A DNA stretch of 64,000 nt from Escherichia coli (GTDB lineage Bacteria > Pseudomonadota > Gammaproteobacteria > Enterobacterales > Enterobacteriaceae), in NCBI RefSeq assembly GCF_030013595.1, contig NZ_CP122768.1; one strand, written 5' to 3'. A program made the position numbers. This document shows positions 52,501-55,500 of this stretch, one piece after another. Within the stretch, counting starts at the first letter, position 1, and each line of letters opens with the position of its first letter.

Positions 52501-55500
52501 CAGGAGAATATAATAACGGCGGGGCAATATTTGCTAAAGAAAACTCAACGCTGAATCTTACTAATGTTATTTTTTCCGATAACGTTGCAGGTGGCTATGG
52601 TGGCGCAATCTATTCTTCTGGTACTAACGATACCGGTGTCGTCGATTTAAGTGTCACTAACGCCGTGTTTCGCAATAACATCGCTAATGACGGCAAAGGT
52701 GGTGCAATTTATACCATCAACAATGACGTCTATTTAAGTGAAGTTATTTTTGACAATAACCAGGCATATACATCAACAAGTTACAGCGATGGCGATGGGG
52801 GCGCAATCGATGTCACCGATAATAATAGCGATATCACGCATCCGTCAGGTTTCACAATAATAAATAACACCGCATTTACAAATAACACTGCCGAAGGTTA
52901 TGGCGGGGCAATTTATACCAATAGCGTGACGGCTCCCTATCTTATTGATATTTCGATTGATGACAGCTACAGCCAGAACGGCGGCGTGTTACTCGATGAG
53001 AACAATAGCGCGGCAGGTTATGGGGATGGTCCTTCCACTGCGGCGGGCGGCTTTATGTATCTCGGCTTAAGTGAAGTTACCTTTGATATTGCCGACGGAA
53101 AAACGCTGGTTATCGGCAATACAGAGAATGACGGAGCTGTTGACTCTATTGCTGGTACCGGGGTAATCACCAAAACAGGTTCCGGCGATCTGGTACTTAA
53201 TGCAGATAACAATGACTTTACTGGCGAGATGCAGATAGAAAACGGTGAAGTTACCCTGGGCCGCAGCAACTCCCTGATGAATGTCGGCGATACGCATTGC
53301 CAGGACGATCCGCAAGACTGCTACGGTCTGACGATAGGGAGTATTGATCAGTATCAGAATCAGGCTGAGCTAAACGTTGGCTCGACCCAACAAACTTTTG
53401 TGCACGCATTGACGGGCTTTCAGAATGGCACTTTAAATATCGATGCTGGTGGCAACGTTACTGTTAATCAGGGCAGTTTTGCTGGCACCATCGAAGGTGC
53501 TGGTCAGCTCACCATTGCGCAAAACGGCAGCTACGTGCTGGCAGGGGCTCAGTCGATGGCGCTAACTGGCGATATAGTCGTTGATGATGGTGCGGTGCTT
53601 TCACTGGAAGGCGACGCGACAGATCTCGCCGCTCTCCAGGACGATCCGCAGTCGATTGTGGTAAACGGCGGTGTGCTCGATCTCTCTGATTTCTCCACCT
53701 GGCAGAGCGGTACATCATACAACGATGGCCTTGAAGTCAGCGGCAGCGGCGGTACGGTTATCGGCAGTCAGGATGTGGTGGATCTCGCAGGTGGCGACAA
53801 TTTGCATATCGGCGGCGACGGTAAAGATGGCGTCTACGTGGTGATCGATGCGGGCGACGGGCTGGTTAGCCTGGCAAACAATAATAGTTACCTGGGCACC
53901 ACGCAAATCGCTTCCGGTACGCTGGTGGTGAGTGACAACTCGCAGCTTGGCAATACCGACGAAAACCGTCAGCTCATCTTTACTGATAGCCAACAACAAA
54001 GTGAGATGGAAATTACCGCTGACGTTGATACTCGTTCAGAGGCAGCAGGTCACGGGCGTGATATTGAAATGCGCGCCGACGGTGAAGTGGCGGTTGATGC
54101 GGGGGTAGACACGCAGTGGGGCGCACTGATGGCTGACAGCAGCGGGCAGCATCAGGATGAGGGTAGCACATTGACGAAAACGGGGGCGGGTACGCTGGAA
54201 CTGACCGCCAGCGGTACAACGCAGTCGGCGGTACGTGTCGAAGAAGGCACCCTGCAAGGTGATGTTGCGGATATCTTCCCTTATGCTTCGTCGCTGTGGG
54301 TCGGTGACGGGGCAACGTTCAAGACTGGCGCGGATCAGGATATTCAGTCAATTGATGCTACTTCCAGCGGCACTATCGACATCAGCGATGGTACGGTTTT
54401 GCGCCTGACCGGGCAGGATACTTCCGTCGCCCTTAATGCCTCACTGTTTAACGGCAATGGGACGCTGGTGAATGCCACCGATGGCGTGACGTTGACAGGC
54501 GAGCTTAATACCAACCTTGAAACTGACAGCCTGACCTATCTTGCCGACGTGACGGTTAATGGTGATCTGACCAATACGTCCGGTGCGGTTAGCCTGCAAA
54601 ATGGCGTCGCTGGCGATACGCTGACGGTAAACGGTGATTATACCGGCGGCGGTACGCTACTGCTCGATAGCGAATTAAACGGCGATGACTCGGCAAGTGA
54701 CCAACTGGTGTTGAACGGTAATACTGCTGGCAACACGACCGTGGTAATTAATCCCATTACGGGTATTGGTGAGCCGACATCTACAGGTATTAAAGTGGTT
54801 GATTTCGCAGCCGATCCAACGCAATTTCAAAACAATGCGCAGTTCAGTCTGGCGGGCAGCGGCTACGTCAATATGGGCGCGTATGACTACACGCTGGTGG
54901 AAGATAACAACGACTGGTATCTGCGATCGCAAGAAGTAACGCCACCATCGCCACCTGATCCAGACCCGACTCCCGATCCTGATCCCACGCCGGATCCTGA
55001 TCCAACACCCGACCCGGCCCCGGACCCTACGCCTGCCTACCAGCCGGTGTTGAATGCCAAAGTTGGTGGATATTTTAATAACCTGCGGGCGGCAAATCAG
55101 GCGTTTGTGATGGAGCGACACGATCACGCTGGTGGCGATGGTCAGACGCTGAATTTACGTGTTATCGGCGGACGTTATCATTACACAGCAGCGGGGCAAC
55201 TGGCTCAGCATGAAGACACTTCTACGGTGCAGCTTAGCGGCGACTTGTTTAGCGGGCGCTGGGGCGCGGATGGCGAGTGGATGCTTGGGGCGGTTGGTGG
55301 CTACAGTGATAACCAGGGCGACAGCCGCTCGAATATGACCGGAACTCGCGCCGATAACCAGAACCACGGTTATGCCGTTGGTCTGACCTCAAGCTGGTTT
55401 CAGCACGGTAATCAGAAGCAGGGGGCCTGGCTGGATAGCTGGCTGCAATACGCGTGGTTTAACAATGATGTTTCCGAACAAGACGATGGCACAGATCATT

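What the first reader, a model, noticed from the sequence alone, without database searches (positions are those of the whole stretch)
54940..55035. Degenerate PDPTPD tandem repeat linker in the yfaL autotransporter
The passenger-to-barrel junction contains a proline/aspartate-rich stretch (PPSPPDPDPTPDPDPTPDPDPTPDPAPDPTP) encoded by about 18-nt near-perfect DNA repeats (gacccgactcccgatcct / gatcccacgccggatcct / gatccaacacccgacccg). This is a likely slippage-variable spacer controlling the reach of the adhesin passenger domain.
Basis: seen in the sequence. Interest (0 to 1): 0.25.

Follow-up and report, generated by a model that had tools for sequence, protein, structure and literature searches.

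The report
Proline-rich spacer in YfaL adhesin
This is the ordinary proline/aspartate-rich spacer that joins the stalk of the E. coli surface adhesin YfaL to its membrane anchor; its length differs modestly between strains through gain and loss of short in-frame DNA repeats, but nothing shows that it varies fast or that the length matters.

Summary
Window 54939-55034 encodes TPPSPPDPDPTPDPDPTPDPDPTPDPAPDPTP (aa 919-950) of the 1252-aa autotransporter YfaL/EhaC. It lies between the autochaperone end of the passenger (…DWYLRS) and the helix that plugs the beta-barrel. The 18-nt periodicity is the strongest in the 64-kb window.

"Near-perfect DNA repeats" is wrong for this allele. The three DPDPTP units are identical as protein but only 72-83% identical as DNA. 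Every difference is at a third codon position, and the longest exact repeat is 11 nt.

Across 5,419 complete E. coli genomes I found seven in-frame length classes, giving an 18-34 aa linker, each a multiple of 6 nt apart. A second allele family carries an exact 18-nt unit in 1, 2 or 3 copies. That series recurs on two flank haplotypes with 0/380 flank differences within each, which indicates recurrent slippage.

Length nevertheless tracks haplotype: 1,825 genomes share the K-12 allele. There is no ON/OFF switching. "Controlling reach" is untested.

Proline-rich spacers at this position (TibA) and polymorphic proline repeats (pertactin R1/R2) are already known. Low interest.

The parts
52185..55943 (+). 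yfaL/ehaC coding sequence (1252 aa, AIDA-I-type type Va autotransporter adhesin)
   Evidence: ORF list and translation. NCBIfam NF007285 equivalog, 2767 bits, full length. RefSeq annotation of the 100%-identical strain CFSAN018748.
54564..54935 (+). Autochaperone (junction) domain at the C-terminal end of the passenger, ending in ...DYTLVEDNNDWYLRS (aa 794-917)
   Evidence: Pfam AC_1 covers aa 794-904. It aligns to the AIDA-I transport unit 4MEE residues 29-138 and to the IcsA autochaperone 3ML3. AF2 beta-strands run up to residue 117 of the 452-aa query, which is aa 917.
54813..54822 (+). Upstream imperfect copy of the repeat core (GATCCAACGC, encoding DPT of 'FAADPTQ'). In one strain it is the left endpoint of a 174-nt in-frame deletion.
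   Evidence: Sequence. Deletion junction FAADPT|PDPDPTPDPEPTP in L013, strain VTB97022v.
54939..55034 (+). Proline/aspartate-rich spacer TPPSPPDPDPTPDPDPTPDPDPTPDPAPDPTP (aa 919-950; 17 Pro, 8 Asp, 5 Thr)
   Evidence: Translation and composition. The AF2 model shows no secondary structure at query residues 118-157, with pLDDT about 45-58. The corresponding gap in AIDA-I 4MEE is about 10 residues, against about 41 here.
54957..55010 (+). Three tandem 18-nt units, each encoding DPDPTP. DNA identity is 72-83%, with all differences synonymous.
   Evidence: TRF period 18, 3.1 copies, 78% matches. Unit-by-unit comparison.
55011..55034 (+). Degenerate terminal unit DPAPDPTP. It is the site of the 6-nt difference from the K-12 allele (DPEPTP).
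   Evidence: Codon-level comparison of alleles.
55056..55100 (+). Alpha-helical linker predicted to sit in the barrel pore (aa 958-972, KVGGYFNNLRAANQAF region)
   Evidence: AF2 helix at query residues 158-172. Homology to the 4MEE helix and barrel from query residue 159.
55146..55937 (+). Outer-membrane beta-barrel translocator domain
   Evidence: Pfam PF03797 covers aa 991-1230. TIGR01414 also matches. AF2 strands span query residues 188-451 with pLDDT mostly 80-95.

Best explanation
Protein level (inferred). The region encodes a 32-residue acidic (X-Pro)n spacer of YfaL. It is inserted between the last beta-strands of the autochaperone domain and the alpha-helix that runs through the beta-barrel pore. 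It most likely forms an extended, polyproline-II-like, protease-resistant tether. This tether sits just outside the barrel and holds the beta-helical passenger a few nanometres off the outer-membrane surface, at most about 10 nm if fully extended. This is inferred from the spacer's position and composition, and from the lack of predicted secondary structure.

DNA level (length variation shown, mechanism inferred). The region is a coding tandem repeat with 6-nt (Asp/Thr-Pro) and 18-nt periodicity. It changes length only in frame, by replication slippage or short-homology deletion. This yields lineage-specific alleles with 18-34 aa linkers.

The window allele. Its units have diverged at nearly every synonymous site while the peptide repeat is preserved. 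The tract is therefore old, is constrained at the protein level, and slips only rarely.

The length polymorphism is ordinary variation in tandem-repeat number (VNTR-type). It is not a regulatory switch. Whether the length differences have any phenotypic effect is unknown.
For: Identity and position:
- establish the gene and where the linker sits.
- The spacer is an insertion relative to AIDA-I: about 41 versus about 10 residues between the aligned blocks.
- AF2 gives no secondary structure and low pLDDT for query residues 118-157, flanked by confident strands, a helix and the barrel.

Distant homologues (about 30% identity) at the same WYLRS...Y(Q/R)P position:
- Some have Pro/Asp-rich spacers of different length and sequence: P0077 with (PDPxPT)n of about 50 aa, P0103, and P0115.
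- P0089 has six TPVDPDDGGSDV repeats.
- P0100 and P0106 have almost none.
- The spacer is therefore an optional, variable module.

Published parallel: TibA is described as having 'an additional proline-rich domain' (residues 627-677) between its junction region and its membrane domain (PMC3835316).

Repeat anatomy: the units are 72-83% identical, with all mismatches at the third codon position.

Length classes:
- Seven in-frame classes were seen, all multiples of 6 nt apart.
- First systematic 60-genome sample, against the K-12 allele: 40 same length, 3 at +6, 1 at +12, 13 at -18, 2 at -24, 1 at -36.
- Second systematic 60-genome sample, against the window allele: 6 same length, 38 at -6, 2 at -30, 13 of the other allele family, 1 large deletion.

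Slippage signature: alleles with 1, 2 and 3 copies of the exact unit GACCCAACACCCGATCCT have 0/380 flank differences within the PPLPP background (L024/L020/L023). The same holds within the PPSPP background (L025/L004/L019). The two backgrounds differ by 8/190 in the left flank.

Stability: 1,825 genomes are >=99% identical to the K-12 allele over 193 nt. They include K-12, B, O157:H7 and O145 strains.
Against: - No experiment or structure shows that the spacer is extended or that it sets passenger height. The AF2 low confidence is only compatible with that idea.
- Alleles were read in about 30 fetched loci. Their frequencies come from two rank-spaced samples of 60 genomes, not from all 5,419 genomes, and no phylogeny was built. 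The number and rate of slippage events is therefore not measured.
- Recombination inside the linker could mimic some recurrent events.
- Intraclonal variation was not examined directly in the exact-repeat allele family.
Confidence: 0.75

Rival explanations
1. Adaptive 'reach tuner'. Linker length is selected, lineage by lineage, to set how far the passenger projects through LPS or capsule. Slippage provides the variation on which selection acts.
For: - Length classes span 16 aa, about 5 nm if extended.
- Recurrent gain and loss of one 6-aa unit occurs on identical flanks.
- All but one of the alleles read stay in frame, and all but two keep at least 18 aa of linker.
- The peptide repeat is conserved despite saturated synonymous divergence.
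Against: - No phenotype data exist.
- Length follows flank haplotype or lineage. The short exact-repeat alleles I read came from STEC and other strains such as O111:H8, O121, O91:H21 and O104:H4. The 128-nt class was found in K-12, O157:H7, Nissle and 536. Descent alone predicts this pattern.
- About two thirds of genomes share one length.
- One unit adds about 1.9 nm at most, which is small next to a passenger of roughly 900 residues.
- In-frame conservation is expected anyway, because a frameshift destroys the barrel.
Confidence: 0.12
2. Antigenic variation. The surface-exposed proline repeat is an immunodominant epitope, and repeat changes help immune escape, as has been proposed for pertactin regions R1 and R2.
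For: - Pertactin alleles differ in the number of proline-rich repeats (PMC8931430).
- The linker is about twice as diverse in substitutions as its flanks, which are already divergent: 13% versus 6% mean pairwise among 25 sampled alleles.
Against: - The same paper notes that pertactin R1/R2 variation is slow, and it found no antibodies engaging R1/R2.
- Here the amino-acid repertoire stays very narrow (D/E/T/A/I-P), and the most common length is shared across phylogroups.
- No immunological data for YfaL were found in the library.
Confidence: 0.06
3. Secretion aid. The spacer is needed for passenger translocation, by providing a flexible, non-folding segment that lets the autochaperone fold outside the pore. 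Its length variation is then incidental.
For: It lies immediately N-terminal to the pore helix, at the first part of the passenger to emerge. Proline-rich composition prevents premature folding (general knowledge).
Against: - Homologous autotransporters have only about 10 residues here: AIDA-I 4MEE, and P0100 and P0106.
- Natural alleles range from 18 to 34 aa.
- Rare in-frame deletions remove half or all of the spacer (L013; P0008). Their functionality is unknown.
Confidence: 0.06
4. Contingency or phase-variation locus. Fast slippage in the tract switches YfaL ON and OFF, or changes it within a clone.
For: It is a tandem repeat in a surface adhesin gene. One genome (GPEC60-12-649) has an 11-nt deletion inside the repeat and is annotated as frameshifted.
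Against: - The units are 6 and 18 nt, so slippage stays in frame.
- The window's units are only 72-83% identical, and the longest exact repeat is 11 nt.
- All 120 systematically sampled genomes had in-frame lengths or large in-frame deletions.
- 1,825 genomes, including many laboratory K-12 and B derivatives, share one allele.
Confidence: 0.01

Closest known systems
Proline-rich domain of the E. coli autotransporter TibA (residues 627-677)
   Same: It occupies the same position: an extra proline-rich segment between the junction/autochaperone region and the membrane-embedded C-terminal domain of an AIDA-I-type autotransporter (PMC3835316). Its size is of the same order (about 50 versus 32 aa).
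   Different: It belongs to a different protein and autotransporter group. TibA is placed in the self-associating Group 4, and YfaL in Group 8 (PMC9289746). I did not align the sequences here. No allelic length series is described for TibA in the text I read.
Pertactin repeat regions R1 (GGxxP) and R2 (PQP) of Bordetella
   Same: These are proline-rich tandem repeats in an autotransporter passenger whose copy number differs between alleles on a slow, population-level timescale. [quoted passage not shown]
   Different: The paper describes R1 and R2 as loops connecting rungs of the beta-helix, not as a spacer between the autochaperone and the pore helix. The repeat sequences differ. Pertactin's passenger is cleaved, whereas nothing here shows that YfaL is.
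YfaL/EhaC reference alleles (E. coli K-12 and others)
   Same: The gene, synteny and architecture are the same. The K-12 allele has the identical three DPDPTP units, including the same codons (L002).
   Different: The window allele ends in ...DPAPDPTP, where K-12 has ...DPEPTP (+6 nt, +2 aa). The window allele is uncommon: 62 of 5,419 genomes are >=99% identical over 199 nt, and its length class makes up about 5-10% of the sampled genomes.
Rigid (X-Pro)n spacers such as the TonB (Glu-Pro)n(Lys-Pro)n region and trypanosome procyclin EP repeats
   Same: These are alternating acidic residue-proline repeats thought to form extended rods that span a defined distance at a membrane surface (my own knowledge). 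The homologue P0077, whose linker is similar but longer, carries a precomputed hit to PF05887. From memory, PF05887 is the procyclin acidic-repeat family.
   Different: The proteins are unrelated. The resemblance is only compositional and was not tested structurally here.

Membership tests
YfaL/EhaC (NCBIfam NF007285, equivalog) | Full-length match to the family model above its curated cutoff | tested here: met
   2767 bits against a cutoff of 1459, covering protein residues 1-1252 and model positions 1-1250.
YfaL/EhaC (NCBIfam NF007285, equivalog) | Conserved chromosomal position between nrdA/ypaB and ubiG/gyrA | tested here: met
   Annotation of the 100%-identical locus in CFSAN018748. The window ORFs of 761 aa (minus strand) and 875 aa (plus strand) flank the gene. 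The gene was found in 5,419 of 5,426 complete E. coli genomes, once each.
Type Va (classical) autotransporter | C-terminal beta-barrel translocator preceded by a pore-spanning alpha-helix | tested here: met
   PF03797 covers aa 991-1230, and TIGR01414 also matches. Homology to the AIDA-I transport unit 4MEE. The AF2 model has a helix at query residues 158-172 and a barrel at 188-451.
Type Va (classical) autotransporter | Beta-helical passenger with a C-terminal autochaperone domain | tested here: met
   PF18883 AC_1 covers aa 794-904, and PATR and PMP repeats lie in the passenger. The region matches the IcsA autochaperone structures 3ML3 and 5KE1.
Type Va (classical) autotransporter | N-terminal Sec signal peptide | not tested
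   The N-terminus MRIIFLRKEYLSLLPSMIASLFSANGVAAA looks like one by eye. No predictor was run.
Proline-rich inter-domain spacer of autotransporters (TibA-type) | Proline-rich segment located between the junction/autochaperone region and the membrane domain | tested here: met
   The linker is 53% Pro over aa 919-950. It lies between AC_1/WYLRS and the pore helix. The TibA description comes from PMC3835316.
Proline-rich inter-domain spacer of autotransporters (TibA-type) | Extended or unstructured conformation acting as a stalk | tested here: inconclusive
   AF2 shows no secondary structure and pLDDT of about 45-58. This is compatible with the feature but does not demonstrate it.
Coding VNTR (variable-number tandem repeat) | Copy number of a tandem unit differs among strains of the species | tested here: met
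   Seven in-frame length classes were found. An exact 18-nt unit occurs in 1, 2 or 3 copies on identical flanks.
Contingency locus / phase-variable simple sequence repeat | Tract of identical units long enough for high-frequency slippage | tested here: not met
   The window units are 72-83% identical and the longest exact repeat is 11 nt. The other allele family does have 20-38 nt exact repeats.
Contingency locus / phase-variable simple sequence repeat | Slippage changes reading frame or promoter spacing, giving ON/OFF expression | tested here: not met
   The units are 6 and 18 nt and lie inside the CDS. All sampled length classes differ by multiples of 6 nt. A single 11-nt frameshift allele was found.
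Contingency locus / phase-variable simple sequence repeat | Variation within clones or closely related isolates | tested here: inconclusive
   It was not seen in the window/K-12 allele family, where 1,825 genomes have an identical-length allele. The exact-repeat family shows 1-, 2- and 3-copy variants on identical 380-nt flanks, but the clonal relationships of those strains were not established.

The most novel reading that the evidence does not exclude
The linker is a selectable 'height knob'. In the allele family with exact 18-nt units (found here in STEC and other strains), recurrent one-unit gains and losses adjust how far YfaL projects relative to the strain's O-antigen or capsule. The synonymous scrambling of the units in the window/K-12 family would then be an evolved lock that freezes a preferred length.
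Probability: 0.08. Interest if true: 0.35.

Novelty: already known. Interest (0 to 1): 0.1.

Why it matters
It matters little. The gene, its architecture and the existence of proline-rich spacers and polymorphic proline repeats in autotransporters are all established.

Three modest practical points follow:
- yfaL linker length is a stable, lineage-informative in-frame polymorphism with an 18-34 aa range. In the exact-repeat allele family it is a small VNTR.
- YfaL is used as a surface-display scaffold (Ko et al. 2012, cited in PMC9289746). Natural alleles show that the spacer can range from 18 to 34 aa, which could guide the choice of spacer length.
- Many draft-assembly protein fragments stop or start in this 69%-GC repeat. 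Allele calls should therefore come from complete or long-read assemblies.

Tried and rejected
- Literature. Searches for yfaL with 'proline-rich', VNTR, MLVA or 'tandem repeat' found nothing that describes this linker or its polymorphism. The YfaL display paper, the Drobnak nomenclature review and Cote & Mourez 2011 are not held. TibA's proline-rich domain is therefore cited only through PMC3835316.
- Opposite strand. The antisense ORF at 54675-55127 (150 aa) has no Pfam match. There is no Rfam match on either strand in 54400-55600. I treat it as a mechanical by-product of CCN/GAY codons.
- ON/OFF phase variation. Rejected, because all units are multiples of 3 nt.
- GATC cluster. Six Dam sites lie within 78 nt, the densest cluster in the window. 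I considered a regulatory role and rejected it. The sites are an automatic consequence of GAT-CCN (Asp-Pro) codon pairs about 2.7 kb inside the CDS.
- Homologue search. The homologous-protein search returned mostly E. coli and Shigella fragments. Only eight distant homologues were usable, so the AF2 alignment was shallow. The autochaperone part of the model has low confidence (pLDDT 45-60), and no fold search was run.
- S. sonnei contig breaks. I tried to explain the breaks in the linker as an IS insertion. At least 16 nt is missing between the two contig ends and the ends seem to vary. The cause stays unresolved.
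Full report
**1. What is in the sequence**

The window has a 1252-aa ORF at 52185..55943 on the + strand. NCBIfam's equivalog model for 'AIDA-I family autotransporter adhesin YfaL/EhaC' matches it end to end, at 2767 bits against a cutoff of 1459. A 601-nt query around the finding hits 5,419 of 5,426 complete E. coli genomes, once each, always inside an annotated yfaL. The window is 100% identical to strain CFSAN018748. There the gene lies between nrdA/ypaB and ubiG/gyrA.

The proline-rich stretch is TPPSPPDPDPTPDPDPTPDPDPTPDPAPDPTP, aa 919-950, nt 54939-55034.

**2. Is the repeat real?**

Yes.
- Tandem Repeats Finder reports 54957-55012, period 18, 3.1 copies, 78% matches.
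- The lag-18 self-match at 54957 is 28 of 36. That is the highest value anywhere in the 64-kb window (mean 9.5, sd 2.8).
- The stretch holds 17 of the protein's 33 prolines and is 69% GC, against 52% for the gene.

The three DPDPTP units are identical as protein but only 13/18, 14/18 and 15/18 identical as DNA. Every mismatch is at a third codon position, and three to five of the six third positions differ in each pair. The longest exact direct repeat in the window's linker is 11 nt, GATCCTGATCC. The title's 'degenerate' is right. 'Near-perfect DNA repeats' is not.

**3. Where it sits in the protein**

Pfam places the autochaperone domain AC_1 at aa 794-904 and the autotransporter beta-domain at aa 991-1230. 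Against solved structures, the C-terminal 452 aa align to the AIDA-I transport unit 4MEE in two blocks:
- query 8-117 to 4MEE 29-138, ending ...WYLRS;
- query 159-446 to 4MEE 149-463, the helix plus the barrel.

The two blocks are about 10 residues apart in AIDA-I and about 41 apart in YfaL. The proline-rich stretch is therefore an insertion between the autochaperone cap and the pore helix.

An AlphaFold2 model of the same 452 aa was built from a shallow 9-sequence alignment (mean pLDDT 74). It has beta-strands up to residue 117 and no secondary structure at 118-157, where pLDDT is about 45-58. A helix follows at 158-172, and a confident barrel at 188-451. 'Passenger-to-barrel junction' is therefore correct.

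**4. Do alleles differ in repeat number?**

The answer is that alleles do differ, so the refutation criterion ('identical repeat count across all alleles') is not met.

I fetched about 30 alleles from complete genomes. I compared the segment between the conserved anchors GACTGGTATCT (DWYL) and TACCAGCC (YQP). In-frame lengths of 92, 104, 110, 122, 128, 134 (the window) and 140 nt occur. This gives linkers of 18 to 34 aa, and all classes are multiples of 6 nt apart.

Two rank-spaced samples of 60 genomes each give the frequencies:

| Sample | Length relative to the query allele | Genomes |
|---|---|---|
| vs K-12 allele | same length | 40 |
| | +6 | 3 |
| | +12 | 1 |
| | -18 | 13 |
| | -24 | 2 |
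| | -36 | 1 |
| vs window allele | same length | 6 |
| | -6 | 38 |
| | -30 | 2 |
| | other allele family (alignment stops at the repeat) | 13 |
| | large deletion | 1 |

About two thirds of E. coli genomes therefore carry the K-12 length. The window's length class makes up roughly 5-10%.

**5. Two allele families with different repeat anatomy**

- The window/K-12 family reads ...PDPDPTPDPDPTPDPDPTPDP(E or AP-D)PTPA. Its units are scrambled at synonymous sites.
- The second family ends in ...DPIPA. I saw it in STEC and other strains such as O111:H8, O121:H19, O91:H21 and O104:H4. It carries the exact 18-nt unit GACCCAACACCCGATCCT in one, two or three copies. The resulting exact direct repeats are 20 nt long in two-copy alleles and up to 38 nt in three-copy alleles.

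Within the 'PPLPP' flank haplotype, the 1-copy (L024), 2-copy (L020) and 3-copy (L023) alleles have 0 differences in 380 nt of flank. The same is true within the 'PPSPP' haplotype (L025, L004, L019). The two haplotypes differ from each other at 8 of 190 left-flank positions. Unit gain and loss has therefore happened repeatedly on unchanged backgrounds. This is the expected signature of replication slippage on exact tandem repeats.

Two copies is by far the commonest state in this family, at about 22% of all genomes. At least 20 of the genomes listed have one copy, and at least 10 of those listed have three.

In the window's family the changes are rarer and messier:
- loss of one GATCCT (L022);
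- a 24-nt deletion between imperfect copies (L001, L015). These are the window's closest relatives of different length, with 4-6 flank differences in 380 nt;
- a 6-nt difference in the terminal unit.

**6. Is it 'variable' in the sense of a fast locus?**

The evidence says no, at least for the window's family.
- Length tracks flank haplotype in all three rank-spaced listings.
- 1,825 genomes are >=99% identical to the K-12 allele over 193 nt. They include K-12 and B laboratory derivatives, O157:H7 and O145.
- 62 genomes are >=99% identical to the window allele over 199 nt.
- Because the units are 6 and 18 nt, slippage cannot switch the gene off.

Only one frameshifted allele turned up. It is an 11-nt deletion inside a three-copy tract, annotated as a pseudogene.

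The peptide repeat is perfect while the synonymous sites are nearly saturated. This shows that the tract in the window allele is old and constrained at the protein level, not recently expanded.

**7. How it most likely works**

*Shown.* The spacer's position, composition and lack of predicted structure. Its in-frame length polymorphism. Recurrent unit gain and loss in exact-repeat alleles.

*Inferred.* The spacer is an extended, polyproline-II-like, protease-resistant acidic tether just outside the barrel, and it lifts the passenger off the membrane surface. At 3.1 Å per residue (textbook value) the 32 residues span at most about 10 nm. One 6-aa unit spans about 1.9 nm.

Comparative support comes from distant homologues of about 30% identity.
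- P0077 has a longer (PDPxPT)n stretch at exactly this WYLRS...Y(Q/R)P position.
- P0103 and P0115 have other Pro/Asp-rich stretches there.
- P0089 has six TPVDPDDGGSDV repeats.
- P0100 and P0106, like AIDA-I, have almost nothing.

The module is therefore optional and fast-evolving across the family. This argues against an essential role in secretion. It fits an accessory spacer whose exact length is weakly constrained.

**8. Comparison with what is known**

- TibA is described as having 'an additional proline-rich domain' (residues 627-677) between its junction region and its membrane domain (PMC3835316). This is the same position as in YfaL.
- Pertactin's proline-rich repeat regions R1 and R2 differ in copy number among alleles on a slow timescale. 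R2 is disordered in the crystal, and the authors suggest a possible polyproline-II stalk role (PMC8931430).
- YfaL is placed among the Group 8 adhesins (PMC9289746).

I found no paper in the held library that describes the yfaL linker or its polymorphism. The kind of feature is well known, and the gene is a reference-annotated K-12 gene.

**9. Verdict**

Allelic repeat-number variation and slippage hold up. 'Near-perfect repeats', rapid variability and a demonstrated role in reach do not.
- Novelty: already known.
- Interest: low.

Noticed in passing
L013 (NZ_CP178670.1, strain VTB97022v), locus 1-1116; window equivalents 54813-54822 and 54981-54991: A 174-nt in-frame deletion joins the upstream imperfect repeat copy GATCCAACGC ('FAADPT') to repeat unit 2 (GATCCCACGCC). 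It removes the last strands of the autochaperone domain and half of the linker. The CDS (3585 nt) is still annotated as intact. A metagenomic protein (P0008) has a different in-frame deletion, DYT|PAYQP, that removes the whole linker.
   Followed up: partly
L021 (NZ_CM160084.1, strain GPEC60-12-649), locus 201-382: An 11-nt deletion inside a three-copy exact-repeat linker frameshifts yfaL, which is annotated as 'frameshifted'. It is the only out-of-frame linker allele I met. I did not check whether it is real or an assembly error.
   Followed up: partly
L029 end (1900-1909); L026 and L028 start (1-25); proteins P0010-P0116: Dozens of 'partial' YfaL proteins from Shigella sonnei and E. coli draft assemblies are contig-end fragments that stop or start inside the proline linker. 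One fragment ends ...PDPDPTPDP and another starts APTPAYQP. A cluster of 519 members (P0012) has a representative that starts at YQPV. At least 16 nt is unassembled between the two S. sonnei contig ends. The cause is unresolved: it could be coverage dropout in the 69%-GC repeat or an insertion.
   Followed up: partly
window 54925-55002: This is the densest cluster of GATC (Dam) sites in the 64-kb window, with 6 sites in 78 nt against a mean spacing of 236 nt. It follows automatically from GAT-CCN (Asp-Pro) codon pairs. I see no reason to think it is regulatory. A second cluster of 5-6 sites lies at 41182-41287, inside a 542-aa minus-strand ORF.
   Followed up: partly
window 54700-55300 and loci L001-L025: yfaL is unusually polymorphic for an E. 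coli chromosomal gene. Only 26 of 5,419 genomes are >=99% identical to the window over 601 nt, and most are 80-95% identical. The 190-nt flanks of the linker differ by about 6% on average among 25 alleles. Those alleles were chosen for diversity, not at random.
   Followed up: partly
window 54675-55127, minus strand: A 150-aa GTG-start ORF lies antisense to the linker region. It has no Pfam match, and no Rfam family matches on either strand. It is most likely a mechanical by-product of the codon composition.
   Followed up: yes
L014 (NZ_CM128599.1, strain E500002): This is the longest linker allele seen (140 nt; ...PDPDPDPTPDPAPTPDSDPTPDPAPAPTP). It lies in a yfaL annotated as a pseudogene ('incomplete; missing C-terminus'). 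The same linker occurs in an Escherichia sp. protein (P0001).
   Followed up: no
summary line: One of the 5,419 yfaL matches lies on a record labelled as a plasmid. Seven of the 5,426 genomes have no match at all. Neither was looked at.
   Followed up: no
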